In this document: positions 12,488 to 57,261 of the stretch, one piece after another
Position numbering within the stretch: the first letter of the stretch is position 1
Layout: each line of letters opens with the position of its first letter
DNA from: Candidatus Pacearchaeota archaeon
Lineage (GTDB): Archaea; Nanobdellota; Nanobdellia; Pacearchaeales; GW2011-AR1
DNA length: 64,000 nt
Direction of reading: 5' to 3'
Assembly (NCBI GenBank): GCA_041651235.1
Contig: JBAZJQ010000001.1
Coordinates: 302,449-366,448 of the forward strand
Position numbers and translations under genes: made by a program
The notes under the pieces: generated by a model
The model's database searches: none
What the model was told of the DNA's origin: nothing
The model's input: only the letters and a program-made list of their open reading frames with translations

Positions 12488-12620
12488 ATGGTGCATAAAA
12501 AATATATACAAACTTTCTTTAGAAAAGACAAGTTTGAACAAAGAATAACTTTTTCGATAAAAGTTAAATCAAAATCAAATATATTTTTATAATATAAAAA
12601 TGGTGCATAAAAAATATATA
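12488..12620 (+). mobile_element. hairpin element copy A, flanked by a 21-bp duplication of the host start-codon region
   Basis: ATGGTGCATAAAAAATATATA at 12488-12508 and again at 12600-12620. The intervening 91 bp shares its first ~70 nt with copies at 41728, 49180 and 50713. Confidence 0.75.
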
Positions 12621-40672: not shown

Positions 40673-40703
40673 AATAATTATATAAATTTATCTTATTCCC
40701 CTT

Positions 40704-41764: not shown

Positions 41765-41797
41765 AATTAAATAACTAAAAAAGATAAAATAAAAAAG

Positions 41798-44222: not shown

Positions 44223-46508
44223 ATGTTATTCAAGCCAGGAACGCCGGTTTATGCTTATGAAATTGTTAAAGAAGAAGATGCTCAAGTTATGTATGTTAAT
44301 TATTTAGGGGCTCCCTTAGTGCCTAATCTAACTAATGCAGATATTATGTCCAGCACAGTTGATTTATTAATCCAATCCCCCAATGTTTCTAGGATTGTTT
44401 TTGTACAGCAAAGAAATTATTCTTATGGTTCTGAAGAGGTTTTTGTTTTAAAAGAAATCGCAAATCTTTATGTTTATCTTACTAAACAAGAAAATATTCT
44501 CTCCCCTATTAAATTATCTATAATGAATTCTGAATATCTTGGGCAGAGACATAATGATGTTAGTTATCTTTTAATGACTTTAAAGAGAGATCCTATTGCT
44601 TGTTATTATGAATTAAAGAGATTTTTAAAACAAGAAAAATTAAATTTACTTAATACTCCTGAAGAGCTTAAAGTTGATCAGCTAAGTTATATTCGGTTAT
44701 TAGAAAAGTTTTTTTCTTTATTAGGACAATCAAAATTAATAAAGCAAGCTGAAATTTATTTTTCAAATTATTCTTTTGGAGACAGAGAAATTTATAATCA
44801 TGTATTTAGGACAAATATAATTCCTAATTTTACTTTTACTAGATTGGTAAGTAATCTCCCTGAAAACGCAGAGATTGTACAGCAATATGAATTGGGATCT
44901 GATTCAAGTAAATCTCTTGTAACTATTTTGAAAAAAGAAGAAGAAACTAAATATATTTATCATCTAATGCCTCCAGAATATGCCTTAGAAGAAGATAAAC
45001 AGGAATTGCTTAATCTTGCAAGAAATGTTTTAATTGAACATCAACCAAAAGCAGAAGAGTTTACTGATCCTGAAAAAACACGGCAAGTATTTTTTAATGT
45101 AGCAAGAGATTTGTTAAGTGAGCTGTCAGTTAGCAGAAAAGTAAAATTAAGTTATGATGAATTAAATACTTTAGCTAAAATTTTAGTTAGACACACTATT
45201 GGATTTGGATTAGTAGAAATATTATTGCAAGATAAAAATATCCAGGATATTGTATTGAATGCACCTATTTCTTCTAATCCTGTCTTTTTAAGGCATCAGA
45301 ATTTTGATGAATGCATAACTAATATCCTTCCAAGTACTGAAGATGGAGACTCGTGGGCAGCAAAATTTAGAATGATTTCAGGAAGACCCCTCGATGAAGC
45401 GAATCCTATTTTAGATACTGATTTGGGTTTGGGAGATATAAGGGCGAGAGTTGCAGTTATTCAGCAACCACTTTCACCAAAAGGATTAGCTTATGCAATT
45501 AGAAGGCATAGGGAAGAGCCATGGACCCTGCCTCTCTTTATTAAATATAAAATGCTGAATAGTTTTGCAGCAGGCTTAATGAGTTTTTTAATTGATGGAA
45601 GCAGGACTATTTTAATTGCAGGAACAAGAAGTTCAGGTAAAACTTCTTTGTTAGGAAGTTTAATGCTGGAGATTATGCCGAAGTACAGAATAATTTGTAT
45701 CGAGGATACTTTGGAATTACCTGTAGAAGCATTGAGAAAATTACAGTATGATATTTTAAGGATGAAAGTTAGAAGCAGTTTATTAAAAACAACAACTGAA
45801 ATTGGAGCTGATGAAGGTATAAGAACTTCGTTAAGATTAGGAGACTCAAGCTTGATTGTTGGAGAAGTAAGAAGTTTGGAGGCTCAGGCACTTTATGAAG
45901 CAATGAGGGTTGGTGCTTTAGCAAATGTTGTTGCAGGAACAATTCACGGAGCTTCACCATATGCTGTGTTTGACAGAGTTGTTAATGATTTGAAAGTACC
46001 TGTTACTTCATTTAAAGCAACTGACTGCATTATTGTTGCTAATCCAGTTAAAACTCCTGATGGATTAAAATCAATGAAAAGAATTTTGCAGATAAGTGAA
46101 GTAAGAAAACATTGGACAGTAGATCCTGAACAAGAAGGGGGCTTTGTTGATTTATTGAAGTATAATGTTGAAAAAGATGAATTAGAAGCAAGCGAAGAAT
46201 TAATTAATGGGGATTCTGAAATAATAAAATCTATTGCTGGAAGTGTTAAAGGATGGGCTGGTGATTGGGATGCTGTTTATGATAATATTTTATTAAGAGG
46301 AAAAGTGAAGCAGGAAATTGTTGATGTTGCTGAAAAAACAAAGAAACCAGAATTATTAGAATCCCCATTCAATAGTTTGTCTAATAATATGTTTCACCAA
46401 TACTCTAAAGAAATTCAAGAAGAAGTTGGATTGCCTGTAAGTGATAGGGTTTTTCCTTTATGGCAGGATTGGTTAAAAAGACAGGTTCAGGGAAAAAAGA
46501 TATCATAA
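44223..46508 (+). CDS. type II/IV secretion family ATPase (FlaI/PilB/VirB11-like) with long N-terminal extension
   Basis: Walker A AGTRSSGKTS about 465 residues in, IICIEDTLEL, Walker B/Asp box LIVGEVRSLEA, His box AGTIHGAS. Confidence 0.88.
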   Translation: MLFKPGTPVYAYEIVKEEDAQVMYVNYLGAPLVPNLTNADIMSSTVDLLIQSPNVSRIVFVQQRNYSYGSEEVFVLKEIANLYVYLTKQENILSPIKLSIMNSEYLGQRHNDVSYLLMTLKRDPIACYYELKRFLKQEKLNLLNTPEELKVDQLSYIRLLEKFFSLLGQSKLIKQAEIYFSNYSFGDREIYNHVFRTNIIPNFTFTRLVSNLPENAEIVQQYELGSDSSKSLVTILKKEEETKYIYHLMPPEYALEEDKQELLNLARNVLIEHQPKAEEFTDPEKTRQVFFNVARDLLSELSVSRKVKLSYDELNTLAKILVRHTIGFGLVEILLQDKNIQDIVLNAPISSNPVFLRHQNFDECITNILPSTEDGDSWAAKFRMISGRPLDEANPILDTDLGLGDIRARVAVIQQPLSPKGLAYAIRRHREEPWTLPLFIKYKMLNSFAAGLMSFLIDGSRTILIAGTRSSGKTSLLGSLMLEIMPKYRIICIEDTLELPVEALRKLQYDILRMKVRSSLLKTTTEIGADEGIRTSLRLGDSSLIVGEVRSLEAQALYEAMRVGALANVVAGTIHGASPYAVFDRVVNDLKVPVTSFKATDCIIVANPVKTPDGLKSMKRILQISEVRKHWTVDPEQEGGFVDLLKYNVEKDELEASEELINGDSEIIKSIAGSVKGWAGDWDAVYDNILLRGKVKQEIVDVAEKTKKPELLESPFNSLSNNMFHQYSKEIQEEVGLPVSDRVFPLWQDWLKRQVQGKKIS

Positions 46509-46547
46509 ATACATAATGCTTTTAAATTAAAATTTGATATTTAAAAG

Positions 46548-46904
46548 ATGTATATTGGAATTAAAAAAAGAGAAAGAGAGTTTAAAGAGCAGAATTATCG
46601 ATGCAAGCTGCCTCTTTTAGAGATTTATTTGTTTAGAAATCCTCGTATTGCTTCTTCTGATAATGGGATTGCTGTAATTCATTTAGATGATCCTCTTAAG
46701 GATTATAAACAATTTGAATTATTTAATGGAGATTTAATTGAGAGGACTAAGGGAGGATTAGGGGGAATTGGAATTGAAAGAGATTGTCTTTTTGAGATTA
46801 ATGGAAATTTAAAAGAGCTTTCTGAAAAGCATAAGATTCCTATGTTTTGTTTAGAGAAAGTAGCAAATAGCTTTAGAGAGCCGGCAGGCAATGCAAGTAA
46901 TTAA
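46548..46904 (+). CDS. hypothetical soluble protein between ATPase and platform genes
   Basis: 118-aa ORF, no TM, no motif recognised. Confidence 0.45.
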   Translation: MYIGIKKREREFKEQNYRCKLPLLEIYLFRNPRIASSDNGIAVIHLDDPLKDYKQFELFNGDLIERTKGGLGGIGIERDCLFEINGNLKELSEKHKIPMFCLEKVANSFREPAGNASN

Positions 46905-46934
46905 GTTTATTAATTCTATTTCTTAATTTTATAT

Positions 46935-49124
46935 ATGGAAAATAAAGAGGTTAAAGATATTCTTGAAAAGTATTCTAATCAATTAAAAGAGCAAGTAGAA
47001 AATTATGATAATTATAGTCCTTCTGGAGAACAGGTTAGCAGAGAATTCGAGCAATTTAAACAAGATATGATGCCAGAATTATCTAAATTTGAAAGGTGGG
47101 CTGCAAATATTGGAGGAATAATAAAACTTAAGATTGCTACAAAAGATGAAGAGAAAATCCAAAAAGAATTAGATAATGCCCACTTAAATGTTAGTCCCGG
47201 AGAAGTGGTTGGGTTAGCAATTGCTGGTTTTTTAGGATTCTTTTTTCTTGGAATCTTAATAAGTGTTGCTATATGGTTATTTAGTGGGGAAAGTTTGATT
47301 AATGGTTTTCCATTATTATTTTTATTTTTAATGCTAGTTGCTTCATTTTTTATTTTTTATTATTTTTATTCGCAGCCTTCAAGACTTGCAACTAAATGGA
47401 GATTAAAGGCAAGTAGCCAGATGGTTCCTGCAATTCTCTATACTGTAATTTATATGAAACACACAAGTAATTTAGAAAGAGCAATTAGTTTTGTTGCACA
47501 AAATGTCGAAGAACCTTTAAGTTTGGATTTAAGAAAAGTTATATGGGATGTTGAAACAGGGAGATATTCTACAATAAAAGAAAGTTTGGATTCATATCTT
47601 GATTCTTGGAGAGAGCATAGTATGGAATTTGTAGAGAGTTTTCATTTAATTGAATCAAGTTTATATGAGCCTAGTGAAGCAAGAAGAATTCAGATTTTGG
47701 AAAGAGCTTTGAAAGTTATTTTAGATGGAGTTTATGAGAAAATGTTGAAATATACTCATGAAATAAAATCTCCTTTAACTAATATTTATATGTTAGGAAT
47801 TGTTCTTCCAACTTTAGGATTAGCTTTACTGCCTTTAGCTTCTACTTTGTTAAGCGGAGCTATAACTTGGGTGCATGTATTTTTAATATTTAATTTAATA
47901 ATCCCTTTTTTAGTTTTTTATTTAACTAGTCAGATAATGCTGCAAAGGCCAGGAGGTTATGGGGAAACTAGCTTGTTAGAAAGAAATCCTCTTTATTATG
48001 AATATAGTTCCAAGAGTGTTTATTTTACTGCATTTGCAATTTGTTTGCCTTTCTTTTTATTGGGAATACTTCCATTAATTTTTGGATATACTCCTGTTCC
48101 TGCATGGTTAGGCTTACCTAGTGATTTTAATACAAGCACCTTTGCTTTCGGAATTTTTGGAGATAAGGCTTTTGGATTTTTATTAAATGATGCAGGAGAT
48201 ACTGTTGGTCCTTTTGGATTAATTGGATTATTGCTGAGTTTATTAGTTCCATTTTCAGTTGCAATGTTTTTTTCTCTAAGTTTTTCATTTAGAACTAGAA
48301 ATTTAATTAAAGCAAGAAATGATTCAAAGGATTTAGAAAAAGAATTTAACAGCAGTTTGTTTACCTTGGGAAATAGATTGGGTGATGGAACTCCTGCTGA
48401 AATTGCATTTGCAAGAGTTGCTGAGTCAGTTAAAGGACAGAAAACAGAGGATTTCTTTAGAATTGTTAACTCAAATATTCAATCAATGGGTATGAGCATA
48501 GAAAATGCTATTTTTAATCCTACCAGAGGGGCTTTGATTTATTATCCTTCAACCTTAATTGCAACAAGCATGAGAATTTTAGTTGAATCTGTTAAAAAGG
48601 GTTTGAGAGTTGCTGCTGAAAGTTTAATGAGTATTTCTGAATATGTAAGAAATATACAGAAAATAAATGAAAGATTAAGAGATTTACTTGCTGATGTGGT
48701 TTCTGATATGAAGAGTAATATGACTTTTTTAGCTCCTTTGCTAGCGGGAATTGTAGTAGGTTTGTCTGCAATGATTACTGGAATTTTAGGAATGTTAGAA
48801 GGGTTAATGGGAGAGGGAGGGGCTGGAACCTCGATTGCAGGTATAGGGGATATAGGGAGTATAACTACTTTGTTCAATATAAAGACAATGATTCCTCCTT
48901 ATTTTTTGCAAATTGCAATTGGAATTTATCTTGTACAGATTGTATTTATTTTAACAGCAACACTAACTACTGTTGATTCTGGTGAAGATAAATTAAAACA
49001 AACTTACGATATTTCTAAGAATTTAATTAGAGGCACAATTTTATATTTGGTTACAGGATTTATTTCAATTATTGCTCTAAGTGTTTTAGCTTGGTTTGCA
49101 TTAAAAGGATTAGGTGCAGGTTAA
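46935..49124 (+). CDS. polytopic membrane platform protein (FlaJ/TadC/PilC-like)
   Basis: Two soluble helical domains, each followed by TM clusters, matching the two-repeat T2SS-F architecture. Sits immediately downstream of the ATPase. Confidence 0.65.
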   Translation: MENKEVKDILEKYSNQLKEQVENYDNYSPSGEQVSREFEQFKQDMMPELSKFERWAANIGGIIKLKIATKDEEKIQKELDNAHLNVSPGEVVGLAIAGFLGFFFLGILISVAIWLFSGESLINGFPLLFLFLMLVASFFIFYYFYSQPSRLATKWRLKASSQMVPAILYTVIYMKHTSNLERAISFVAQNVEEPLSLDLRKVIWDVETGRYSTIKESLDSYLDSWREHSMEFVESFHLIESSLYEPSEARRIQILERALKVILDGVYEKMLKYTHEIKSPLTNIYMLGIVLPTLGLALLPLASTLLSGAITWVHVFLIFNLIIPFLVFYLTSQIMLQRPGGYGETSLLERNPLYYEYSSKSVYFTAFAICLPFFLLGILPLIFGYTPVPAWLGLPSDFNTSTFAFGIFGDKAFGFLLNDAGDTVGPFGLIGLLLSLLVPFSVAMFFSLSFSFRTRNLIKARNDSKDLEKEFNSSLFTLGNRLGDGTPAEIAFARVAESVKGQKTEDFFRIVNSNIQSMGMSIENAIFNPTRGALIYYPSTLIATSMRILVESVKKGLRVAAESLMSISEYVRNIQKINERLRDLLADVVSDMKSNMTFLAPLLAGIVVGLSAMITGILGMLEGLMGEGGAGTSIAGIGDIGSITTLFNIKTMIPPYFLQIAIGIYLVQIVFILTATLTTVDSGEDKLKQTYDISKNLIRGTILYLVTGFISIIALSVLAWFALKGLGAG

Positions 49125-49162
49125 ATTTATTAAGTCTTTTTTTGTTTTATTAATGCTATAAG

Positions 49163-49597
49163 ATGAGAAATAAAAGAGGTAAACTTTCTTTAGGAAAGAC
49201 AAGTTTAAACAAAGAAAAACTAAATATGAAAAAGGTAAACCAAAATCTGTTTTTATCTGAAGATAAAAAAGGTTTTGAAATGGCTATTAGTACTCTAATC
49301 TTAATGATTATAGGAGTAGTTTTGCTTATCTCTCTAATAACTTTTTTTACAATGGGAAGTGCAGAATTTATTAAAACAATAAAAAGTTATGTCAGTTATT
49401 CAAATGTAGATAATGCTGTTGAATCTTGTAACATTTTAGTTGATACTAATCAGCAAAATACTTATTGCTGTGAGAAAAGAATCGTTAAATATTATGAAGA
49501 GGGAGATAAAAAAGAAGAAAGTTTTAGTTGTTATGATTTAATCCCCTTAAAATTGAGTGATAATTTAAAAGAAATGAGTTGTAATGTTGAGTGCTAA
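49163..49597 (+). CDS. type IV pilin-like protein whose signal-peptide region carries hairpin element copy C
   Basis: ...EDKKG-FEMAISTLILMIIGVVLLISLITFF class III pattern. The element is read through in frame. Alternative start ATG at 49226. Confidence 0.7.
   Translation: MRNKRGKLSLGKTSLNKEKLNMKKVNQNLFLSEDKKGFEMAISTLILMIIGVVLLISLITFFTMGSAEFIKTIKSYVSYSNVDNAVESCNILVDTNQQNTYCCEKRIVKYYEEGDKKEESFSCYDLIPLKLSDNLKEMSCNVEC
49180..49256 (+). mobile_element. hairpin element copy C (inside coding frame)
   Basis: TAAACTTTCTTTAGGAAAGACAAGTTTAAACAAAGAA...AAAGGTAAACCAAAATCTGTTTTTAT. Flanked by an imperfect 13-nt repeat, AAATAAAAGAGGT (49168-49180) and AGATAAAAAAGGT (49261-49273). Confidence 0.7.
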
Positions 49598-49767
49598 TGA
49601 AAATTTTTAAAAAAAGTAAAAAAGGAATGGAAATGGAAGTTTTAGCTTGGTGGATACTTGGGTTAATTGTTTTTGTTGTTATTGTTTTTGGGTATATTAT
49701 CTTAAGTGGAAAGGGAGGAGGAATGATTAGTTATCTTAAGAATTTATTTAGAGGAGGGATAGGATAG
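49597..49767 (+). CDS. 56-aa mini pilin-like protein (not in ORF track)
   Basis: MKIFKKSKKG-MEMEVLAWWILGLIVFVVIVFGY... The ATG overlaps the upstream TAA (TAATG). Confidence 0.55.
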   Translation: MKIFKKSKKGMEMEVLAWWILGLIVFVVIVFGYIILSGKGGGMISYLKNLFRGGIG

Positions 49768-49772
49768 GCACC

Positions 49773-50681
49773 ATGAATAAAAAAGCAGATACAGGGCTTA
49801 CTATGAATAAATTAATTACTTTATTTATAATTGCAATAGTAATTATTGTAGTTGCTATAGGTTCAATAAAATATGGGAAAGATATTTTTGATAAGATTAA
49901 AACCATTTTTCCGGGTTTTAATCAGACTGCGGGGAATAATGAGTTAATTCAACCTGCAACTATTCTAAATATTAAAACGAATGTTTTATTAAATGATGGA
50001 GAGGGAAGATGCATTGTTTATGAAGAGAAAAATCCTTTAATTAAGGATTATGGGATAAGAGAAAATAAATTATGGAGATTTGAAAATGGGAAGTGGATAG
50101 ATATAGACACAACGGCTAATTTAGATGATAATCAAATGACGAAATGCGAAGCTGTTCAAAAGTTAATTGCTGATGAAAAAGAATTAATGCAAGAGATTAA
50201 AGATTATTATTATCAGTTTTATAATGATGTTTGTATTCCTACTTTTAATGATCCAAGCAACTATATTGATTCTGAGATGAATGTTAAATGTGGATTTTTA
50301 AAAGAGCTTTTTGAAGAAAATTTCTTTAGTAGCGCAAGTTTTAAAGATATCGAAAGTATAGATGATGATAACCTTAAAAGTGAAATATATTTTTTAGTTC
50401 AATTGATTATAAAACAAGATGAGAGCTTAAAAAATGAAATTAGTTTTAGTGGAAAATTAAATATTTTAATGCTTCCTGCGGGTAACTTAAATCAGATATT
50501 GTCGAGTACATTAGATGGGAATTATGCAACAAATGGAAAAGAAATTTATACATTATCTGGGGTAAAGTGGATTGAAATTGAACAAGAGGATCACCCCTAT
50601 CTATTTATTGAAGGATGCTCAAAAACAAATAAACAGATCAAAGCAGATTTATTCAATGCATGTTATGTTGATGAGAAATAA
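49773..50681 (+). CDS. type IV pilin-like protein (302 aa)
   Basis: MNKKADTG-LTMNKLITLFIIAIVIIVVAIG class III pattern. Confidence 0.7.
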   Translation: MNKKADTGLTMNKLITLFIIAIVIIVVAIGSIKYGKDIFDKIKTIFPGFNQTAGNNELIQPATILNIKTNVLLNDGEGRCIVYEEKNPLIKDYGIRENKLWRFENGKWIDIDTTANLDDNQMTKCEAVQKLIADEKELMQEIKDYYYQFYNDVCIPTFNDPSNYIDSEMNVKCGFLKELFEENFFSSASFKDIESIDDDNLKSEIYFLVQLIIKQDESLKNEISFSGKLNILMLPAGNLNQILSSTLDGNYATNGKEIYTLSGVKWIEIEQEDHPYLFIEGCSKTNKQIKADLFNACYVDEK

Positions 50682-50823
50682 AATATAAAATGAAAAGATT
50701 AAATAAAAAAGACAAACTTTTTTTAGTAAAGACAAGTTTGAACAAAGAATACCTTTTTAGAAAAAAGGTAAACCAAAATCTTTTTTTATTTAAAATATAA
50801 AATGAAAAGATTAAATAAAAAAG
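50679..50823 (+). mobile_element. hairpin element copy D, flanked by a 33-bp duplication of the host start region
   Basis: TAAAATATAAAATGAAAAGATTAAATAAAAAAG at 50679-50711 and 50791-50823. The intervening 79 bp is the element, with both hairpins intact. Confidence 0.8.
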
Positions 50824-51362
50824 CAGAAGAGGGAACTTTTTTAGGTGTAAAAGTAGTTAATTTAGTTATTGCGGTATTGTGTATAATTATTCTTATTACT
50901 CTAGGAGCTAAATTATTTAAATTATTTTCAGAAGAAGGCAATGTTAAACAAGCAGAAGATATACTTAATTTGATTAACGATAAAATAAGTTATTTAACTG
51001 GAGGGGAGTATACTGAAAATTTTTTATACATGACTATTTTTCCTCCTGAAGATTCTGGCTGGTTTTTAAAAAGTTACCAGGAAAGTTTTTTTCCTGAAAA
51101 AGAATGTGTTGGCAAGTTTAAGAGTTGTTTGTGTATTTGCAACTCTAAAGATTGTATTGGTTTAAAAGCATGCAAGGGAATGGGGAAATATACCTTAGTT
51201 GAGGGGGATTTTAAAGAAGAGATTCTTATAGGAGGACATGTTAACCCCCAACCAGGCTCTGGGGTTTTTACAACTAAAGAAATAATTCAATTATCAACTG
51301 CTCAGCAGGAGTTAACTTTAACTAAATCAGATAATAAAGTTATTATAACCGAGAAAAAATGA
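50802..51362 (+). CDS. type IV pilin-like protein (186 aa)
   Basis: MKRLNKKAEEG-TFLGVKVVNLVIAVLCIIILITLG. Confidence 0.7.
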   Translation: MKRLNKKAEEGTFLGVKVVNLVIAVLCIIILITLGAKLFKLFSEEGNVKQAEDILNLINDKISYLTGGEYTENFLYMTIFPPEDSGWFLKSYQESFFPEKECVGKFKSCLCICNSKDCIGLKACKGMGKYTLVEGDFKEEILIGGHVNPQPGSGVFTTKEIIQLSTAQQELTLTKSDNKVIITEKK

Positions 51363-51469
51363 AGTCAAAAAAAGCACTTGAAGATTTAATGAATATTTTA
51401 TTATGGATTATATTTTTAATAATTGCCATAGGAGGTTTATATTTTTTAATTAATTTTTTAACAAAATGA
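51359..51469 (+). CDS. 36-aa mini membrane/pilin-like protein (not in ORF track)
   Basis: MKSKKA-LEDLMNILLWIIFLIIAIGGLYFLINFLTK. ATGA overlaps at both ends (51359-51362 and 51466-51469). Confidence 0.5.
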   Translation: MKSKKALEDLMNILLWIIFLIIAIGGLYFLINFLTK

Positions 51470-52419
51470 AGAAAAATAAAAAAACAGGTAAGAAAGCAGA
51501 AATGAGTTCAAGGACATTAATAGCTTGGATATTATTAATACTTGCTTTTGGAATTGTATTATTATTTTTTTATATGTTTGATTGGACAGGAGAAGTAGAC
51601 AAACAAGCATGTCATAGCTCTGTTATTTTCAAAGCAACTGTTCCTGAATTAAAGGATCAAAAGGTTGTTGAGCTGCCTTTGCAATGTGAAACTGAAAAAA
51701 TATGTATAACCAGCAATATTATTAGTAAAGGGAACTGCGACAAAGATTATCTTGGAGAAAAATATCAAACAGTAAGAGTTTCTGGAGATTCAAAACAAAT
51801 GAATGACGAAGTAAATAAGATTATTGCAGATAAATTATATGAATGCTGGTGGATGATGGGGCAGGGAAAAGTGAAAATTTATTCAAGATATTCAAAGGAT
51901 TTTGGAGAGGGCAAGGTTTGCAACATCTGCACTAGAATTGCTTTTGATGACAATATTAAATCAGTTTTAAATAATAAAGTAACGGGGAATGTAAACTATT
52001 TCACAAGTCATAATGCTCCTGGAGAAGATGTTACTTATTATCAATATATAACCAATAATCCTGTTAATTATGTTAATGGATATGAAGAAAGTCAGGATTT
52101 TATGAATTTAAGCCAAAAAGCAATTATCTTCGGAGAGATTAGCAGCAGTGTTATTCCCGGGTGGATTGGAGTTAGTTCTGGAACTGCTGTAGGAATTATT
52201 ATTGGAGCACAAATAGGAGCTATTGTTCCACTTCCAGGAACTACTTTAGTTGGGGCAGGTGTTGGAGCAATTGCAGGATACTGGGGAAGTGATAATCTTA
52301 AAGAGGTTATTGAAGGATGGACTGGAGCTGATGCAGTATTTGGAGCTATACAGATTAAAGATTATAATATTGAAACATTAAAATCATTAAATTGTTCTTC
52401 TTTTGAAGGCAAAGTTTAG
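51466..52419 (+). CDS. type IV pilin-like protein (317 aa) with Gly-rich hydrophobic C-terminal segment
   Basis: MKKNKKTGKKA-EMSSRTLIAWILLILAFGIVLLFFY. C-terminal GVSSGTAVGIIIGAQIGAIVPLPGTTLVGAGVGAIAGYWG. Confidence 0.7.
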   Translation: MKKNKKTGKKAEMSSRTLIAWILLILAFGIVLLFFYMFDWTGEVDKQACHSSVIFKATVPELKDQKVVELPLQCETEKICITSNIISKGNCDKDYLGEKYQTVRVSGDSKQMNDEVNKIIADKLYECWWMMGQGKVKIYSRYSKDFGEGKVCNICTRIAFDDNIKSVLNNKVTGNVNYFTSHNAPGEDVTYYQYITNNPVNYVNGYEESQDFMNLSQKAIIFGEISSSVIPGWIGVSSGTAVGIIIGAQIGAIVPLPGTTLVGAGVGAIAGYWGSDNLKEVIEGWTGADAVFGAIQIKDYNIETLKSLNCSSFEGKV

Positions 52420-52453
52420 TTAAATTTATAATGTTTCTAAGGTTATTTAATAC

Positions 52454-52846
52454 ATGAAAAATAAAAAGGGTGAAGAGATTTTAGAGAGCACAGTTATTTT
52501 TATTTTATTAAATCTTATGTTTTTTGCAGCAATATTTTTTGGGGTTGTTTATAGAGTTGAATCTGGAGCAAGTGTTTACGAGCAAATATATGCAAAACAA
52601 ATTGCTCTCACTATTGATCAGGCAAAAACCGGTATGAATATTACATTAAATTTAGATGGGTTAATGAATCTAGCTGATAAAAATAAAATAAGCAGAGCAA
52701 ATGTTGTTAAAATTGATAATGAGAAAAAATTAGTGCAGGTTATAGCTGCAAATGGAGAGGGGTATAGTTATAATTTTTTTACAGATAATGAAATTCTTTG
52801 GAGCTTAAAAGTTAAGGCAATGAAACTGGAGATGAAGGTAAAATGA
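52454..52846 (+). CDS. type IV pilin-like protein (130 aa)
   Basis: MKNKKG-EEILESTVIFILLNLMFFAAIFFG. Confidence 0.65.
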   Translation: MKNKKGEEILESTVIFILLNLMFFAAIFFGVVYRVESGASVYEQIYAKQIALTIDQAKTGMNITLNLDGLMNLADKNKISRANVVKIDNEKKLVQVIAANGEGYSYNFFTDNEILWSLKVKAMKLEMKVK

Positions 52847-53310
52847 GTAAGAAATTTATGTTGAATAAAAAAGCAGGTGAAAAGTACTTATTTGGCTGGA
52901 TGTTTTTAATTTGGGTTTTAATTGCTGTTAGTATTTTTGCAGGAATATTTTTATTCTATTCAGTGAATATTGATGCAAGGCCTGAACAAGCTAGAATACT
53001 AAATCTAAGGTTAATGGACTGCATTAATGATAATTTTGAAAAAGTAGATAATAATTTTGATTTTTTTTCTGAATGTAATTTAAATAAAGAAGTGATTAAT
53101 GGAGAGGGATATTTTTTGAGGATTTCTATTCCTGGAAAAATAAATATGGAATTTGGAAAAAAAGACTTAGAATTGCAATGCCAGTTAGCAGAGGAAGGGA
53201 TTGAAGGAGATTTTCCTGCATGCGATTTAAGAAAACTTTATTATTATTCAGATAAAGAATATGTAATAGAGGTTTTTAGTGCTTCTAGTTACAATGGAGG
53301 AGAATTATGA
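52843..53310 (+). CDS. type IV pilin-like protein (155 aa)
   Basis: MSKKFMLNKKAG-EKYLFGWMFLIWVLIAVSIFAG. ATGA overlap with the upstream gene. Confidence 0.65.
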   Translation: MSKKFMLNKKAGEKYLFGWMFLIWVLIAVSIFAGIFLFYSVNIDARPEQARILNLRLMDCINDNFEKVDNNFDFFSECNLNKEVINGEGYFLRISIPGKINMEFGKKDLELQCQLAEEGIEGDFPACDLRKLYYYSDKEYVIEVFSASSYNGGEL

Positions 53311-53870
53311 TAAACAGAAAAGCGCAACTTGGAGCAACTTTTACTTGGTTTATTGCAACAATAATTGTTATGTTTATTCTTGTTATTTATCTTATTTTAA
53401 TGTCTGGTATTTTTATAGATAAAAATAAGATAAAAATAGGTAAAGAGGAAAATTCAGATAATGCTTATAGCTCCTTTGTTTTGAATTCTATTTTAAATGA
53501 TAAAATTGAATTTAATGGCAATTCTGTTTTATTAAAAGATGCTCTTAATGAGTGGATAATCTCTGAAAATCAAGAGGATTTTCAAGAAGAATTAGAAAAT
53601 CAAATTAAAAGTAAAATAGATAATTTATTGAATTCTGGAGAAGGATATTTATTTTATGTTGCTTATAACGAGAATCCTAATCAAATTTCTGGAAGTTTTA
53701 CTGGAGGAGGATTTGAAATTGATGGAGCAGATTATGGTGATTATTTTTATTTAGTTTCAGATAACTTTGAAAGATACGGAGTTGCAACTGAAGCTGAAGC
53801 TGCATTAACAAAAGCCTCTACAATTTATCTTAATAATAAATTTAAAATAAGGTTGTATATTGGAAAATGA
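53307..53870 (+). CDS. type IV pilin-like protein (187 aa)
   Basis: MINRKAQ-LGATFTWFIATIIVMFILVIYL. ATGA overlap. Confidence 0.65.
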   Translation: MINRKAQLGATFTWFIATIIVMFILVIYLILMSGIFIDKNKIKIGKEENSDNAYSSFVLNSILNDKIEFNGNSVLLKDALNEWIISENQEDFQEELENQIKSKIDNLLNSGEGYLFYVAYNENPNQISGSFTGGGFEIDGADYGDYFYLVSDNFERYGVATEAEAALTKASTIYLNNKFKIRLYIGK

Positions 53871-54229
53871 TAAATAAAAAAGCAATGTCCCTTTCAGTTG
53901 TATTGTTAGTTATTATGACTTTAATTTTAGTTATAATTTCTTTAGTTTATTTTGAAATAAGAGATGAAAAATTAAATCAGCAAATTAAGTTAGGGAATCT
54001 GGATAGAGTTTATGCTAAAGAACAGGAAATTAATTTTTATTTAAATGAAATAATGTCTTCTGATAACTTTCAAAGGGAATTTGTTAAATATCGAGATAAT
54101 TTGGAACCTGCTTTGGATAATGTTAGATATACAATTAATGGAAATGAAGTTGTTTTTGATGTTTTGATCCAAGAATCTAATGATAATATCGAAGTTAATT
54201 ATAATTATCAGAAAATCTTCAAGATTTGA
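53867..54229 (+). CDS. type IV pilin-like protein (120 aa)
   Basis: MINKKA-MSLSVVLLVIMTLILVIISLVYF. ATGA overlap. Confidence 0.65.
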   Translation: MINKKAMSLSVVLLVIMTLILVIISLVYFEIRDEKLNQQIKLGNLDRVYAKEQEINFYLNEIMSSDNFQREFVKYRDNLEPALDNVRYTINGNEVVFDVLIQESNDNIEVNYNYQKIFKI

Positions 54230-54292
54230 AAACATTTATAAAGACAGCAGGTTTATTATTAAAATAATAAACGGATGAAAGATTAGCAAAAG

Positions 54293-54796
54293 ATGGTGAG
54301 GAAAAAAGATAAAAAAGGAGCTGAAATGACTATTGGTACTATTATAGTTATTATTTTAGCTTTAGTTGTTCTTGTTGTAATTATTTATGGATTCACAACT
54401 GGATGGGGGAATTTATGGGGAAAAATTACTGGTTTTGGCGGAGGAAGTTCTAATGTTCAAACAATGGTTCAAGCTTGTCAAATAGCTTGTACAAGTGCAA
54501 GTAATTATGATTACTGCAATTTAGAAAGAAATGTTGTTTTTGGAAAAGAGGATACTAACAACGGAGATTATACTTGTAAGATCCTAGAAACTAAAAATAT
54601 AGGTTTACCGATTTGTAAAAGTGTAACTTGTTCAGGTTCTGTAACAAGTACAACTGAAACTGCTGATGAAACTAAATTTAATACCTGGAAAGCTGGATGT
54701 GTAAGTGCTGGAGGAGAGGCAAAAACTGCTAAAGAGGGAACTTGTGCAAGTAACACCCTGACCTATAATAATCAACTTTATTATTGCTGTAAATAA
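54293..54796 (+). CDS. type IV pilin-like protein (167 aa), Cys-rich; candidate major subunit
   Basis: MVRKKDKKGA-EMTIGTIIVIILALVVLVVIIYG. 10+ Cys in the mature part. Own intergenic spacer upstream. Confidence 0.65.
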   Translation: MVRKKDKKGAEMTIGTIIVIILALVVLVVIIYGFTTGWGNLWGKITGFGGGSSNVQTMVQACQIACTSASNYDYCNLERNVVFGKEDTNNGDYTCKILETKNIGLPICKSVTCSGSVTSTTETADETKFNTWKAGCVSAGGEAKTAKEGTCASNTLTYNNQLYYCCK

Positions 54797-54810
54797 TTGG
54801 GGTATAAAAA

Positions 54811-55794
54811 ATGAAAAAAATATTATTGTTCTTCGCTGGCTTCTTTTTATTAGGAATTCTTCTATTTTGTTTGAGTTTGGTTTCTGCAGAAGATGAGTTA
54901 AACCAAAAGATCGTTTTTGAGTATTATGAGGGAATGAACGATATTTTTAAGTTTAAATGGAATTCAATAAATAATTACCTTGAAGTAAATTCGGATGTAC
55001 GAAGCGGACCTTGGAGATATGCTTTACCTTATACTCATTATCCCACTGTAGATAGCATCTTTATTAATCTCGTTGGATTATATGCTTATGAACGCGAAGA
55101 TATTGTTAAAATGCTGGGGGCAACTAGTTTCAAAGAAGCAATTGAACTTGCTAATTTAATTGCAAAAGAAAGAGGGATAGAGAAACTTTTTGTGTCTATG
55201 GAAGATTTAGACAGCTCAGATATTCGAGATACCCTTTCAATTGGTTTTGATTTTGAAGAGGATAACCCAGAAGATCTAGAAAATAGGTATAATGAAGATA
55301 CTTTTTTTGAGTTTGATAAAACAGAATTAAACCAAAAGATCGTTTTTGAGTATTATGAGGGAATGAACGATATTTTTAAGTTTAAATGGAATTCAATAAA
55401 TAATCATTTAGAAGTTAATGGAAATGTTAATACTTGGTATCAATCTGCTAGTAGCAAGAGAAGAGAAACAGAAAAGAGTTACGATTTTGATTATACTTCC
55501 AACCCCCTGGGCGATAGTAATTTTGCAAATTTGGTGGGCATCTATCCAGAAGAACAAGACGATGTCTTAACCATGCTTCAAGCAAACAGCTTCAAAGAAG
55601 CAATTGAACTTTCTAATATTATCCAAGTTCAAAGAGGACAAGAAAAATTATCTATTGGAATAGTGGAAACAGAAGATAATCCTAATGAGTTCACATTTGA
55701 TGAAGAAGTTTCCACTACGACTAATGATCAATTTGCATTTAATGAAAAAATTGATGAAACCGAATCAAATCAATTTGATTTCGGAGTAGCATAA
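54811..55794 (+). CDS. secreted two-repeat protein (Sec-type signal)
   Basis: Signal LLFCLSLVSAEDE. Two homologous halves, each starting ELNQKIVFEYYEGMNDIFKFKWNSINN.LEVN and containing SFKEAIEL. Confidence 0.7.
   Translation: MKKILLFFAGFFLLGILLFCLSLVSAEDELNQKIVFEYYEGMNDIFKFKWNSINNYLEVNSDVRSGPWRYALPYTHYPTVDSIFINLVGLYAYEREDIVKMLGATSFKEAIELANLIAKERGIEKLFVSMEDLDSSDIRDTLSIGFDFEEDNPEDLENRYNEDTFFEFDKTELNQKIVFEYYEGMNDIFKFKWNSINNHLEVNGNVNTWYQSASSKRRETEKSYDFDYTSNPLGDSNFANLVGIYPEEQDDVLTMLQANSFKEAIELSNIIQVQRGQEKLSIGIVETEDNPNEFTFDEEVSTTTNDQFAFNEKIDETESNQFDFGVA
54898..54975 (+). repeat. 78-bp perfect intragenic direct repeat, copy 1
   Basis: Identical to 55327-55404 (offset 429 bp = 143 codons). Confidence 0.9.
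55327..55404 (+). repeat. 78-bp perfect intragenic direct repeat, copy 2
   Basis: Identical to 54898-54975. Confidence 0.9.
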
Positions 55795-55904
55795 TTTAAA
55801 ATAAATCTTTTTTAATCGCTTCTTTATTAATTTTTAAAATTAGATTTTTTGATTAGTGAAATTTAAAAACTTGGAGTTATTTAAATTGTTAGGGGTTTGT
55901 TTAA

Positions 55905-56033
55905 ATGGCAGAGGATTATTGTTGTTCAGGGAGAAGAAAAACAAAAACAGATAGGAGAGCTAAAGCTAGATATAATCGATATAAAAAAGGCGGGAGCCAG
56001 AGAGTTAAGGAAAAAGATAACTGGAAAAAATAG
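55905..56033 (+). CDS. 42-aa highly basic mini-protein (not in ORF track, speculative)
   Basis: MAEDYCCSGRRKTKTDRRAKARYNRYKKGGSQRVKEKDNWKK. Lies in a 600-bp gap with no listed ORF. Confidence 0.25.
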   Translation: MAEDYCCSGRRKTKTDRRAKARYNRYKKGGSQRVKEKDNWKK

Positions 56034-56212
56034 TTTAATCTTCTAAAACTGAAATTATGTTGGATATTAGAGACATTAAAAGAGCAAATGCACTTACTGA
56101 TAATCCTGTAATATCCAATGCATTTACTTTTATTAATGTTAAAGAAAAATAGATAAAGAGGAGAATATTAATAGCATGAGATAATATTGAAAGTCCCGAT
56201 CATACTTTCATC

Positions 56213-56326
56213 TTAAGATATTAATAGTTTAATTATCTGCCAAATTAAAAGCCCAATTGCTAAAAATCCTAGTATCCAGGTGATTATTTGTGCTATTTTT
56301 AATATTCTTTTTTTATTTTTTTTCAT
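56213..56326 (-). CDS. 37-aa membrane mini-protein, or the 5' fragment of a decayed membrane gene (speculative)
   Basis: MKKNKKRILKIAQIITWILGFLAIGLLIWQIIKLLIS. A further hydrophobic reading frame continues downstream in another frame to about 56043. Confidence 0.25.
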   Translation of the reverse strand: MKKNKKRILKIAQIITWILGFLAIGLLIWQIIKLLIS

Positions 56327-56412
56327 ATTTATTAATAGTTATAGAACTATATAAAATTAGTGTTAAGATATATTTATTAAGGTATTTTGTCATTTATTAA
56401 AAAGGTGATTAA

Positions 56413-57261
56413 ATGATTAGTGAAATTTTTGCTGGTGAGAATGGATTTCTTATAATTTTAGGATTAATCTGGATTATCGGAGCGATTTTACAGGACTTTA
56501 AAAGAAGAGAGGTAGATAATTTATGGAATTTTAGCTTGATATTTATGGCACTTGCTTATAGGGCCTTTGTTAGTATCTCTAATGGGAATTACTGGTTTAT
56601 TATAAATGGTATAATTGGGTTCGGAGTATTTTTTGCATTAAGTAATTTATTTTATTATTCAAGATTATTTGCAGGAGGAGATGCAAAATTATTAATGGCT
56701 TTAGGAGCAATTCTTCCTCTCTCTTACAACTGGATTTCAAATTTAAAAATATTTGTTGCATTTGTCTTATTATTTTTTGCGTTAGGTGCTTTGTATTCTT
56801 TAGTTTATAGTTTTGTTTTAGTTTTTGCAAATTTTAAGAGATTTACTAAAGAGTTTAAGGTTCAATGGAAAAATTATAATAAAATGTTTTTATGGGCAAT
56901 TGGTTTTATGATCCTCTGGATTATTTTTGCTTTTATTCTAGATCAAAAGCCAATTATGATAATTGGATTTGTTGTTTTGTTGTTCCCTGTTTTATTTGTT
57001 TATGCAAAATCAGTTGAAGAAAGCTGCATGGTTAAATTAGTTGATCCTAAAGAAGTAACTATCGGAGATTGGCTGTATAAAGATATTAAAGTTGGAGATA
57101 AGAAAATAAAGAGCAAATGGGAAGGAGTTTCAAAATATAATCTAGAAATAATAAGAAAAGGAAAGAAAAAGATTTTAATCAAGCAAGGAGTTCCTTTTAC
57201 TCCTAGTTTCTTATTTGGTTTTATTGTATTAATTGTTTTAATTTACAAGGGATATTTGTGA
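56413..57261 (+). CDS. A24-family prepilin/preflagellin peptidase (FlaK/PibD/EppA-like)
   Basis: First Asp block ILQDFKRREVDN, second FAGGDAKLLMALGA (GxGD-type). Polytopic. Confidence 0.82.
   Translation: MISEIFAGENGFLIILGLIWIIGAILQDFKRREVDNLWNFSLIFMALAYRAFVSISNGNYWFIINGIIGFGVFFALSNLFYYSRLFAGGDAKLLMALGAILPLSYNWISNLKIFVAFVLLFFALGALYSLVYSFVLVFANFKRFTKEFKVQWKNYNKMFLWAIGFMILWIIFAFILDQKPIMIIGFVVLLFPVLFVYAKSVEESCMVKLVDPKEVTIGDWLYKDIKVGDKKIKSKWEGVSKYNLEIIRKGKKKILIKQGVPFTPSFLFGFIVLIVLIYKGYL

What the first reader, a model, noticed from the sequence alone, without database searches (positions are those of the whole stretch)
50679..50823. Same element between two pilin genes, with a 33-bp duplication, the same 112-bp period and a compensatory base-pair change
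TAAAATATAAAATGAAAAGATTAAATAAAAAAG occurs at 50679-50711 and again at 50791-50823. The first copy begins with the stop codon of the upstream pilin gene, so the ancestral junction was a tight stop-8nt-ATG.

The ATG-to-ATG distance is 112 bp (50690 to 50802). That is exactly the distance in copy A (12488 to 12600), although the duplicated segments differ in length (33 vs 21 bp) and in sequence.

The second hairpin here is ACCTTTTT-aga-AAAAAGGT (50751-50769). In copy A it is AACTTTT-tcgat-AAAAGTT. The A:T pair of copy A is a C:G pair here, a double compensatory change. In the first stem, C to T gives a G:U-compatible pair.

The decoy ATG opens a 36-codon ORF that ends 1 nt before the real ATG.
Basis: seen in the sequence. 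Interest (0 to 1): 0.8.

Follow-up and report, generated by a model that had tools for sequence, protein, structure and literature searches.

The report
Small inserted repeat duplicating gene starts
A roughly 70-base, hairpin-forming repeat common in tiny Pacearchaeota (DPANN archaea) genomes has been copied into the very start of a pilin-like gene, duplicating that gene's start so the gene survives behind a short decoy reading frame; it appears to be an undescribed kind of small mobile element with an unusual insertion signature.

Summary

The element (E) has four sense-strand copies in this Candidatus Pacearchaeota window. About 60 further copies occur in AT-rich metagenome contigs. It matches no Rfam family, phage or plasmid.

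Four orthologous filled-versus-empty comparisons show that E is an insertion:
- the pilin-like junction;
- the 5' end of the RNase P RNA gene;
- the start of NifS;
- the 3' flank of 23S rRNA.

Insertions typically read X–E–X'–X. X is a 5–34 nt direct repeat of the target's own 5' end. X' is a short inverted copy of X that is absent from empty sites, which suggests fold-back, templated fill-in.

E lies almost always in sense orientation just upstream of gene starts. The decoy ORF usually reads through E and stops at the real ATG. The 112-bp "period" is coincidence, because family spacings range from 78 to 128 nt.

Best reading: an undescribed non-autonomous insertion element, tolerated because the duplication and a relay uORF preserve expression. 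The copying mechanism and any regulatory role are inferred, not shown.

The parts
50679..50711 (+). X(1): upstream copy of the 33-nt direct repeat. It holds the stop codon of gene 49773-50681 and the decoy ATG at 50690.
50690..50800 (+). Decoy (relay) uORF: 36 codons plus TAA. It reads through the element and ends 1 nt before the real ATG.
50713..50780 (+). Element E, copy B. Hairpin P1 is 50713-50740, the linker AACAAAGAA is 50741-50749, hairpin P2 is 50750-50770 and the tail AAACCAAAAT(C) is 50771-50780.
   Evidence: cmsearch 88.3 bits, E 3.8e-13; fold
50780..50793 (+). X' filler, CTTTTTTTATTTAA. It is an inverted copy of TTAAATAAAAAAG and pairs with 50699-50711 (closing stem P0) or with 50811-50823.
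   Evidence: MFE fold pairs these segments; duplex -8.2 kcal/mol
50791..50823 (+). X(2): downstream copy of the 33-nt repeat, containing the real start codon at 50802.
50802..51362 (+). Pilin-like gene (186 aa; MKRLNKKAEEG / hydrophobic helix) downstream of copy B.
   Evidence: no Pfam hit
12488..12508 (+). Copy A, X(1): the 21-nt repeat ATGGTGCATAAAAAATATATA with the decoy ATG. Its uORF 12488-12592 stops 7 nt before the real ATG.
12509..12576 (+). Element E, copy A. P1 is 12509-12536 and P2 is 12546-12566.
   Evidence: cmsearch 91.1 bits; fold
12579..12590 (+). Copy A, X' filler ATATATTTTTAT, an inverted copy of ATAAAAAATATAT within the repeat.
   Evidence: duplex analysis; sequence
12600..12620 (+). 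Copy A, X(2): the start of the 1700-aa surface-protein gene 12600-17702 (MVHKKYIKRDGKIFGPYLYENYR...).
49163..49279 (+). Copy D, an older insertion lying in frame in a pilin-like leader. It consists of the decayed X(1) ATGAGAAATAAAAGAGG (49163-49179), E (49180-49247, with compensated outer pair T..A), the X'-like CTGTTTTTATCT, and a decayed X(2) AGATAAAAAAGGT. ORF 49163-49597 reads through it.
   Evidence: cmsearch 51.3 bits
41728..41797 (+). Copy C, a short (type-2-like) variant lacking P2, directly upstream of membrane-protein gene 41798-42295. It has only a weak A-rich flanking repeat.
   Evidence: cmsearch 42.7 bits

Best explanation
E is a member of an undescribed family of small (about 67-80 nt), non-autonomous insertion elements of Pacearchaeota and related DPANN archaea.

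**What the sequence comparisons show**
- E has been copied into the first 3-33 nt of transcription units, always in sense orientation.
- The insertion carries a direct duplication (X) of the target's own 5' end, running from about the transcript or ORF start to the insertion point.
- It often also carries a short inverted copy of X (X') between E and the second X.
- At 50679-50823 this turned a tight stop-ATG junction between two pilin-like genes into X(33 nt)-E-X'-X.

**What I infer about the mechanism**
- The insertion is made by polymerase template switching at a staggered break.
- One 3' end primes on an E donor, using microhomology at CAAAC.
- The other 3' end folds back on itself and copies about 10 nt, which creates X'.
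- The two ends then anneal in E's A-rich tail.
- Whether the E donor is DNA or RNA is open.

**What I infer about the consequence**
- The gene survives because its start is regenerated.
- Ribosomes starting at the decoy ATG translate a short ORF straight through E and stop at the real ATG. Translation is thereby relayed by termination-reinitiation.
- When the spacing is a multiple of 3, E simply becomes part of a cleavable pilin leader.

E folds into two hairpins that are under selection, so it may also act as a leader RNA. That role is not shown.
For: **Family**
- There are 4 window copies, all on the + strand.
- 75 instances carrying the left arm were recovered from the 78 loci returned by an exact 22-mer metagenome scan.

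**Filled versus empty orthologous sites**
- Pilin junction: window versus L091, which reads GATTAAAATGAG.
- RNase P RNA 5' end: L087 and L051 carry AGTGAGTAAGA|E|CTTACTCATTAA|GTGAGTAAGG, whereas L062 has the same promoter flank joined directly to AGTGAGTAAGG.
- NifS: L034, L039, L046 and L086 are filled. L093, L094 and L095 are empty, with the upstream stop overlapping the ATG.
- 23S rRNA 3' flank: L087 is filled and L051 is empty.

**X' is made at insertion.** It is absent from the empty RNase P site.

**Phylogenetic pattern**
- Filled NifS loci are interspersed with empty ones on a neighbour-joining tree.
- Orthologous genes carry E at different positions: L058 versus L064, and window copy A versus L074, L049 and L033.
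- No E was found in 63 kb plus 25 kb of related genomes.

**Flanking repeats**
- 16 of 70 copies exceed the 99th percentile of the null, and the repeat always ends 0-2 nt from CAAAC.
- Exact anchored repeats of at least 10 nt occur in 13 of 37 copies, against 1.3% in the null.
- Junction microhomologies are seen: GGCAAAC, ACAAA, CAAC, AAAGC.

**Closing helix.** A helix between X(1) and X' is found only in repeat-bearing copies.

**Orientation.** 45 of 55 copies have a sense ORF start within 200 nt downstream. Only 8 of 55 have a divergent one.

**Relay uORF.** The ATG(1) frame is open through E and ends between -11 and +17 of ATG(2) in 11 of 13 copies, while the other frames are closed.

**In-frame cases.** Window copy D, L054 and L090.

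**Precedent.** Fold-back templated insertions at repaired breaks are described in PMC4912351, PMC5728401 and PMC2943611 (abstracts).
Against: - No transposase, reverse transcriptase or HUH nuclease was found among the window ORFs scanned. No partner enzyme is known.
- E has no terminal inverted repeats and no fixed duplication length, so it does not fit any characterised transposition chemistry.
- Several features could equally reflect a host function rather than selfish spread: very high sequence conservation of both hairpins, strict sense orientation, and long retention at some orthologous loci (upstream of one GTPase gene in 5 contigs, and at the RNase P 3' end in 3).
- Empty sites could be secondary precise deletions between the direct repeats, so the polarity of individual events is not proven.
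- At the NifS loci the repeats and X' co-vary between species. This could mean selection on alternative RNA pairings rather than repeated insertion.
- No transcript, ribosome or protein data exist for the relay uORF.
- The search pattern fixed 22 nt of the core, so conservation of that stretch is partly ascertainment.
Confidence: 0.6

Rival explanations
1. E is primarily a cis-acting structured leader RNA, protein- or ligand-binding or acting as a translation enhancer. X(1), X' and X(2) form an attenuator-like switch. X(1):X' closes the two-hairpin domain (P0). Alternatively X' pairs with the real start region, hiding or exposing the ATG and SD.
For: - E is in sense orientation and close to start codons.
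- Structure is conserved with covariation: 97.2% of cells are paired, and the covariation score is 0.095 against 0.035 in shuffles, reached by 0 of 500 shuffles.
- The single-stranded linker and tail are conserved.
- A variable insertion sits in the P2 loop in L020 and L063.
- The P0 helix lies exactly at the element borders.
- In NifS loci X(1), X' and X(2) change together between species: GATAATGC/GCATTATC, GACAATGC/GCATTGTC and GATAACGCA/TGCGTTATC. The filler carries an SD-like AAGGAGG.
- E is retained upstream of the same GTPase gene in 5 contigs.
Against: - There is no Rfam match even at E<10.
- Downstream genes are functionally unrelated: aaRS, EF-1alpha, pilins, NifS, RNA polymerase subunit, RNase P RNA.
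- About two thirds of copies lack P0.
- Copies also sit at the 3' ends of RNA genes between convergent genes, as in L051.
- Exact repeats of 21-33 nt cannot be made by selection on about 10 paired bases.
- Close relatives do without E at the same genes.
- In L046 X(1) and X(2) share CTA while X' keeps the older CAAGG, so pairing is not what is tracked.
Confidence: 0.2
2. E is a DNA-level promoter/operator cassette. The P1 palindrome would be a transcription-factor site between the TATA box and the TSS, and the flanking repeats would be by-products of promoter shuffling.
For: - Many type-2 copies are directly preceded by TATA-like TTAATAAAT or TTTATAAAT.
- E precedes highly expressed housekeeping genes.
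- The P1 stem sequence is nearly invariant.
Against: - P1 is asymmetric, with a conserved bulged C.
- Its only one-sided changes are C to T, giving U.G on the sense strand. These would be A.C mismatches on the other strand.
- P2 covaries, which a double-stranded DNA site would not need.
- In repeat-bearing copies the upstream flank is coding sequence or the old gene start, not a TATA box.
- The distance from E's TTAAAT to RNase P +1 is only about 20-24 nt.
- In many copies the ATG follows the tail by 3-8 nt, leaving no room for a TSS downstream of an E-borne TATA.
Confidence: 0.1
3. E is removed or skipped at the RNA or translation level, as a BHB-type archaeal intron, a self-cleaving leader, or a gene-60-like translational bypass that uses the direct repeats as take-off and landing sites.
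For: - Direct repeats flank a structured insert, so removing one repeat plus E would restore the uninterrupted gene.
- E abuts mature RNA ends: the RNase P RNA 3' end, and a tRNA 3' end at +3.
- The tail lies 3-8 nt from many ATGs. Cleavage there could regenerate a leaderless mRNA.
Against: - No bulge-helix-bulge geometry is present at the borders. P0 is a plain helix.
- No known ribozyme family matches.
- The decoy ORF is open through E, with no stop codon after a take-off codon. This is the opposite of a bypass element.
- The repeats include the ATG and upstream bases, which splicing or hopping would not require.
Confidence: 0.05

Closest known systems
Small interspersed prokaryotic repeats: MITEs, Neisseria Correia elements, ERIC, and Rickettsia palindromic elements (own knowledge; MITE survey PMC11602168)
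   Same: - Short, non-coding, hairpin-forming and multi-copy.
- Show presence/absence polymorphism.
- Co-transcribed with neighbouring genes.
- Sometimes inserted in frame inside ORFs, as RPEs are.
   Different: - No terminal inverted repeats.
- No fixed short target duplication. Instead there are 5-34 nt (once about 100 nt) duplications anchored at the target's 5' end, plus an inverted filler.
- Strict sense orientation.
- No known transposase partner.
SINE / non-LTR retroposon insertions, and chimeric retrocopies made by reverse-transcriptase template switching (own knowledge)
   Same: - Variable-length target duplications.
- One precise element end.
- Junction microhomology.
- An A-rich tail.
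- Association with abundant RNAs and with RNA ends.
   Different: - No reverse transcriptase has been linked to E.
- No poly(A) or internal promoter is shown.
- The hosts are archaea, where no such retroposons are described.
- The duplications start at the transcript 5' end.
Synthesis-dependent microhomology-mediated end joining with snap-back templated insertions (PMC2943611, PMC5728401, PMC4912351; abstracts)
   Same: - An inverted copy of adjacent sequence is created at a junction by fold-back priming on 2-4 nt of microhomology.
- In copy B, CTTTTTTTATT is reproduced exactly by folding the 3' end at 50791 onto 50811-50813 and copying 10 nt.
   Different: - That process is described as break repair in eukaryotes and bacteria, not as the way a defined element spreads.
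- It does not explain E's constant 5' border or its orientation.
Translational coupling / termination-reinitiation through an upstream ORF, and leader-peptide attenuators such as ermC (own knowledge)
   Same: - A short ORF ends at or overlaps the start codon of the main gene. ATGA overlaps occur in L025, L034, L046 and L058, and the gap is 1 nt in copy B.
- Three segments are capable of alternative pairing.
   Different: - Here the leader ORF is created by duplicating the gene's own start.
- Its peptide is read in two different frames in different copies, so the peptide sequence is not conserved.

Membership tests
Classical MITE | Terminal inverted repeats | tested here: not met
   The 5' end is CAAACTTTC. 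The reverse complement of the 3' tail is GATTTTGATTT. They are unrelated (alignment).
Classical MITE | Short target-site duplication of fixed length | tested here: not met
   Flanking repeats range from 5 to 34 nt, and about 69-100 nt in L039.
Classical MITE | Multi-copy with insertion polymorphism | tested here: met
   4 window copies and about 70 elsewhere. Four filled/empty site pairs.
Classical MITE | Related autonomous element or transposase sharing its ends | not testable with these tools
   None among the window ORFs scanned.
IS200/IS605-derived PATE | Insertion 3' of a conserved tetra- or pentanucleotide, without target duplication | tested here: not met
   The upstream 4-mers vary (AAGA, AAAA, GAAA, AATA, GCAA...) and duplications are common.
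IS200/IS605-derived PATE | Subterminal imperfect hairpins at both ends | tested here: inconclusive
   Two hairpins with related arms (AAACTTTC.. and TAACTTTTC..) are present. No TnpA link was found.
SINE-like retroposon | Variable-length target duplications with junction microhomology | tested here: met
SINE-like retroposon | Reverse-transcriptase partner and an RNA intermediate | not testable with these tools
   No RT domain in the scanned window ORFs. No expression data.
Known cis-regulatory RNA or ribozyme (Rfam) | Match to a curated covariance model | tested here: not met
   0 hits at gathering threshold over the window. Only a chance KRAS_3UTR hit (E=3) at relaxed threshold.
Cis-regulatory structured leader RNA (generic) | Conserved structure with covariation, in sense orientation upstream of genes | tested here: met
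   The main covarying pair is linked to subfamily identity.
Cis-regulatory structured leader RNA (generic) | Association with a coherent set of regulated genes | tested here: not met
   Downstream genes include aaRS, EF-1alpha, pilins, NifS, proteasome, an RNAP subunit and RNase P RNA.
Archaeal bulge-helix-bulge intron | Two 3-nt bulges separated by a 4-bp helix at the borders | tested here: not met
   Predicted folds show a plain closing helix. The RNase P junction was inspected.
Translational bypass element (T4 gene 60 type) | Stop codon right after the take-off codon; the gap is not translated | tested here: not met
   The decoy frame is open through the whole element in 11 of 13 copies.
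Type IV pilin genes (flanking genes) | Class III signal-peptide-like N-terminus, in a locus with a secretion ATPase and an A24 prepilin peptidase | tested here: met
   N-termini; PF00437 at 44223-46508; PF01478 at 56413-57261.
Type IV pilin genes (flanking genes) | Sequence match to a pilin family | tested here: not met
   No Pfam hit for 49773-50681 or 50802-51362.

The most novel reading that the evidence does not exclude
E is an archaeal retroposon-like (SINE-like) element copied through RNA. In this reading a polymerase or reverse transcriptase copying a highly expressed transcript reaches its 5' end, snaps back to make X', jumps onto a processed E RNA, and then jumps back onto the same transcript. 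This would explain four things:
- the duplications begin at the transcript 5' end (the ATG of leaderless mRNAs, and +1 of RNase P RNA);
- E is always in sense orientation;
- E favours abundant RNAs;
- E abuts mature RNA 3' ends.

A variant of this reading is that E is also a self-processing leader that regenerates a leaderless mRNA.
Probability: 0.17. Interest if true: 0.85.

Novelty: new variant of a known kind. Interest (0 to 1): 0.62.

Why it matters
DPANN archaea have tiny, tightly packed genomes whose gene regulation and mobile DNA are almost unknown.

This family shows that a roughly 70-nt structured repeat can colonise the first codons of essential genes without killing them. Examples are NifS, aminoacyl-tRNA synthetases, EF-1alpha, pilins and even the RNase P RNA gene. 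The genes survive because the insertion regenerates the gene start.

The insertions leave a readable molecular scar: a 5'-anchored duplication plus a fold-back copy. That scar constrains the enzymology.

The finding matters in four ways:
- It gives gene callers a concrete reason for mis-set starts and "extended" pilin leaders in these genomes.
- It provides natural markers for strain-level variation.
- It offers a testable case of uORF relay translation in archaea.
- If RNA-mediated, it would be the first retroposon-like element in archaea.

Tried and rejected
- **Genome-collection scan** with the palindrome-only pattern AAACTTTNTTTNNNAAAGANAAGTTT. It returned 11 single chance palindromes and no true copy. 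The pattern fixed the loop length and wasted the only genome scan.
- **Viral-contig scan.** One chance hit. No blastn match in phages or plasmids.
- **Rfam** at gathering and relaxed thresholds. Nothing.
- **tRNA-like idea.** P1 as a 7+5 bp acceptor/T-arm minihelix for RNase P was rejected. The bulged C is on the 3' strand, where tRNA is continuous, and ARAGORN finds nothing. Only one of about 70 copies abuts a tRNA.
- **Fifth window copy** at 21762-21821 (25.9 bits). It lies inside an ORF with no core motif, so it is chance.
- **112-bp period as a unit.** Rejected.
- **Conserved decoy peptide.** Rejected, because copies A and B read E in different frames.
- **X' as a pre-existing native hairpin of the target.** Rejected, because the empty RNase P and NifS sites lack it.
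- **Single ancestral NifS insertion.** Unresolved. Three loci share a rare loop variant and a homologous filler. However, filled and empty loci are interspersed on the tree, and L086 carries a different subfamily with a 31/31 identical repeat.
- **Exact-protein look-up of the downstream pilin.** Failed.
- **Extending the genome.** This gave a relative (L096) with a non-homologous pilus locus and no E.
- **Literature searches.** No description of the element was found.
Full report
**1. The observation**

- The 33-mer TAAAATATAAAATGAAAAGATTAAATAAAAAAG lies at 50679-50711 and 50791-50823.
- Its first three bases are the stop codon of ORF 49773-50681.
- ATG to ATG is 112 nt here and in copy A (12488 to 12600).
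- Copy A's exact repeat is 21 nt.
- The decoy ORF 50690-50800 has 36 codons and stops 1 nt before the real ATG.

A flanking match of 33 nt is far beyond chance. Between unrelated flanks the best ungapped match has mean 8.6 and 99th percentile 14.

**2. The element and its family**

The shared core occurs four times in the window, always on the + strand and always just upstream of a gene start. A covariance model built later scores the four copies as follows, and nothing else convincing:

| Copy | Coordinates | Score (bits) |
|---|---|---|
| A | 12509-12576 | 91 |
| B | 50713-50780 | 88 |
| D | 49180-49247 | 51 |
| C | 41728-41775 | 43 |

The source is a Candidatus Pacearchaeota MAG. An identical protein carries the tag WC438_02115 on a 647,740-bp contig. 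The window encodes archaeal PolD, RadA and a type-IV-pilus-like locus with a T2SSE ATPase, a row of pilin-like small proteins and an A24 prepilin peptidase.

An exact 22-mer scan of metagenome contigs returned 78 loci. Within them, 75 instances carrying the left arm were found in AT-rich (GC 0.25-0.33) contigs.

The consensus is CAAACTTTCTTT-loop-AAAGAC-AAGTTTG (P1, with a bulged C), then AACAAAGAA, then TA(A/C)CTTTTC-loop-GAAAAG(T/G)TA (P2), then AAA(T/C)CAAAA(T/G/A)C.

A shorter "type 2" variant lacks P2. It is conserved, with 1-3 tandem 37-45-nt units, upstream of the same 213-aa GTPase gene in five contigs.

Nothing matches in Rfam, in phages or plasmids, or in the literature I could search.

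**3. Structure**

On 45 distinct copies the two hairpins are 97.2% paired. The covariation score is 0.095 against 0.035 ± 0.005 in shuffles, reached by 0 of 500 shuffles. Sliding the partners destroys pairing.
- In P1 the closing pair is C:G in 42 copies and U:A in 2, and in 5 counting type-2 copies and window copy D.
- All one-sided changes in P1 are C to U, giving U.G on the sense strand. This favours a sense-strand RNA, or single-stranded DNA, over a double-stranded protein site.
- In P2 one pair is A:U in 24 copies and C:G in 18. The loop-closing pair is C:G (20), G:C (7) or U:A (5).

Caveat 1: the A:U/C:G state is linked to an unpaired tail position (AAAT versus AAAC). It therefore marks two old subfamilies rather than many independent events. 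The window's copies A and B belong to different subfamilies.

Caveat 2: 22 nt of the core were fixed by my search pattern.

**4. E is an insertion**

Four orthologous comparisons show filled and empty states.

(i) Pilin junction. A 37%-identical orthologue of gene 49773-50681 is followed by the orthologue of the downstream pilin-like gene. The junction reads GATTAAAATGAG, that is stop, 1 nt, ATG, with no element.

(ii) RNase P RNA 5' end. Rfam finds archaeal RNase P RNA in L087, L051 and L062.
- In L062 the promoter flank (TATATTTTTGTAGATA...) runs directly into AGTGAGTAAGG.
- In L087 the same flank is followed by AGTGAGTAAGA | E | CTTACTCATTAA | GTGAGTAAGG. L051 is the same.
- The insertion therefore sits 11 nt inside an RNA gene. 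It duplicates the gene's first 10-12 nt and adds an inverted copy (X') that the empty site lacks.

(iii) NifS.
- Four contigs have X(1)-E-X'-SD-X(2).
- Three orthologues at 68-75% identity have the upstream gene's stop overlapping the ATG and no E.
- X(1) in the filled loci keeps exactly that overlap, so X(1) is the original start.

(iv) 23S rRNA 3' flank. L087 has E where L051 does not, with AAAGC microhomology at the junction.

Further points:
- Filled and empty NifS loci are interspersed on a neighbour-joining tree.
- No E occurs in 63 kb around the empty NifS loci, nor in 25 kb of a close relative.
- The same gene carries E at different offsets in different lineages. The Fe-S protein gene has it at +16 in L064 and +25 in L058. 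The MVHKKYIKR surface-protein gene has it at +21 in the window and +10 in L074 and L049.
- These patterns fit recurrent gain, and possibly precise loss through the direct repeats.

**5. The insertion signature**

Direct repeats.
- 16 of 70 copies have flanking direct repeats above the null's 99th percentile.
- The upstream repeat always ends 0-2 nt before CAAAC.
- Exact repeats anchored at that border are at least 10 nt in 13 of 37 gene-proximal copies, against 1.3% in the null.
- Many more copies have 6-8-nt repeats of the type ATGAAAC or ATGGTA.

Left border of the repeat.
- In 8 of 12 long repeats the left border is 0 to -4 nt from the ATG. The rest lie at -11 to -16.
- For RNase P RNA the left border is at the RNA's 5' end, judged from promoter geometry shared with the empty site.
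- Several repeat-bearing loci have a TATA-like box about 25 nt upstream of that border, for example L017, L043, window copy A and L087.

The inverted copy X'.
- Repeat-bearing copies usually carry, right after E's tail, a complement of the last 8-13 nt of X(1). This forms a stem that closes E.
- Such stems are confined to repeat-bearing copies: 9 of 48 lie below the null's 5th percentile.
- They appear in the MFE fold of copy B.
- In copy B the filler can be derived base by base. Fold the bottom-strand 3' end at 50791 onto 50811-50813 (3 nt) and copy 10 nt. This yields CTTTTTTATT to the left of 50791. The observed sequence is CTTTTTTTATT.
- Fold-back templated synthesis at breaks is an established phenomenon (PMC4912351, PMC5728401, PMC2943611).

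Junction microhomology and carry-over.
- Both junctions often show microhomology (GGCAAAC, ACAAA, CAAC, AAAAT).
- The fillers of the NifS loci and of L058 are homologous (TTGCATTATC..GGAGGAAT), and L058's unrelated gene shares GATAATGCAA with NifS. An E plus filler unit apparently moved by switching within that 10-mer.
- L039 has a roughly 100-nt tandem unit with a partial older E upstream. L067 and L078 also sit behind E remnants.

From this I infer a copy mechanism based on template switching at a staggered break whose left edge is the transcript 5' end. I cannot tell whether the E donor is DNA or RNA, and no enzyme is identified.

**6. Consequence for expression (inferred)**
- E is sense to a downstream ORF start within 200 nt in 45 of 55 loci. 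Only 8 of 55 have a divergent start.
- The reverse strand of E is rich in oligo-T. Selection against antisense insertions in transcribed spacers is therefore plausible (own reasoning).
- In 11 of 13 copies with a duplicated ATG, the ATG(1) frame is open through E and ends between -11 and +17 of ATG(2). ATGA overlaps occur in L025, L034, L046 and L058, and the gap is 1 nt in copy B and in L043, L067 and L086. The other two frames close early.
- E is open in only one or two of three frames, depending on subfamily. This is more than chance and suggests that surviving insertions are those that relay ribosomes to the real start.
- Where the spacing is a multiple of 3, E is simply translated as an extension of a pilin leader upstream of the KKG/F cleavage motif. 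This applies to window copy D at 117 nt and to L054 and L090 at 105 nt.
- Copies A and B read E in different frames, so no decoy peptide is conserved.

**7. The 112-bp coincidence**

Family spacings run from 78 to 128 nt. Two equal values in one genome are unremarkable.

**8. Rivals**
- A regulatory leader RNA with an X(1):X' versus X':X(2) switch is the serious alternative and may coexist with mobility. It explains the conservation, the orientation, and the three-way co-variation at NifS. It does not explain exact 21-33-nt repeats, the unrelated gene set, copies at RNA-gene 3' ends, or the empty sites.
- A promoter/operator cassette is disfavoured by sense-strand wobble pairs and P2 covariation.
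- An intron or bypass reading is disfavoured by open decoy frames and the absence of BHB geometry.

**9. Verdict**

This is a real, well-supported and apparently undescribed family of small structured insertion elements in DPANN archaea. Its target-duplication signature is unusual. Its emphasis on a 112-bp period is not.

Confidence by part:
- That E is an insertion element: about 0.85.
- That the relay-uORF rationale is right: about 0.5.
- That the template-switch mechanism is right: about 0.35.

Noticed in passing
L087 1519-1600 (- strand); L051 4354-4440 (- strand); empty homologue L062: The archaeal RNase P RNA gene is interrupted 11 nt from its 5' end by the element, with a duplicated 5' end and an inverted filler. 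A second copy abuts the RNA's 3' end (CCTTACTCACT|TAAAC) in all three contigs.
   Followed up: yes
window 12404-12413 and 12453-12462: A 10-bp G+C-rich inverted repeat, TTACCCCGCA ... TGCGGGGTAA, with a 39-nt AT-rich spacer. It lies in the divergent intergenic region just upstream of copy A's decoy ATG. Its function is unknown.
   Followed up: no
window 44223-57261: A type-IV-pilus-like locus. It contains a T2SSE ATPase (44223-46508), a 729-aa membrane protein, at least ten small ORFs with pilin-like N-termini, and an A24 prepilin peptidase (56413-57261). A relative that is 94% identical in the adjacent RadA region (L096) carries a completely different, non-alignable pilin set.
   Followed up: partly
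window 40693-40727, 40735-40769, 49538-49572: A 35-nt repeat, TTATTCCCCTTAAAATCGATTTATAATATAATAGA. It occurs twice in tandem in an intergenic region and once (83% identical) inside the 3' part of the pilin-like ORF 49163-49597. It may be a second small repeat family.
   Followed up: no
window 25272-25452 / 27546-27726 and 25989-26102 / 28908-29021; 54895-54990 / 55324-55419: Long internal nucleotide repeats (75-94% identical) inside the 2576-aa ORF 22813-30543 and inside ORF 54811-55794. These are recently duplicated protein domains.
   Followed up: no
L020 about 5301-5368 and L063 3013-3080: Two element copies carry a roughly 45-nt extra stem-loop inserted in the P2 loop (GAGCAAAAAAATCAAGGATTTTTGGCTC...). 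This shows that the P2 loop tolerates large insertions.
   Followed up: no
L088 3613-3740; L057; L026; L024; L041/L027; L042; L049; L038: Tandem arrays of whole or partial elements. One example is three 37-nt units of AAAGACAAGTTTGAACAAAGAAAAACTATGTTAGAAA. In later units the left arm of P1 is replaced by AAACTATGTTAG.
   Followed up: partly
L092 (Logan assembly of SRR8542065), end at 1732: An independent assembly of the same organism breaks 27 nt after the upstream gene, inside the first 33-nt repeat. The repeat is long enough to fragment short-read assemblies.
   Followed up: no
window 36699-37250: A LigT-type 2',5' RNA ligase / phosphoesterase gene. It is noted only because RNA end-processing enzymes could matter for an RNA-mediated model.
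   Followed up: no
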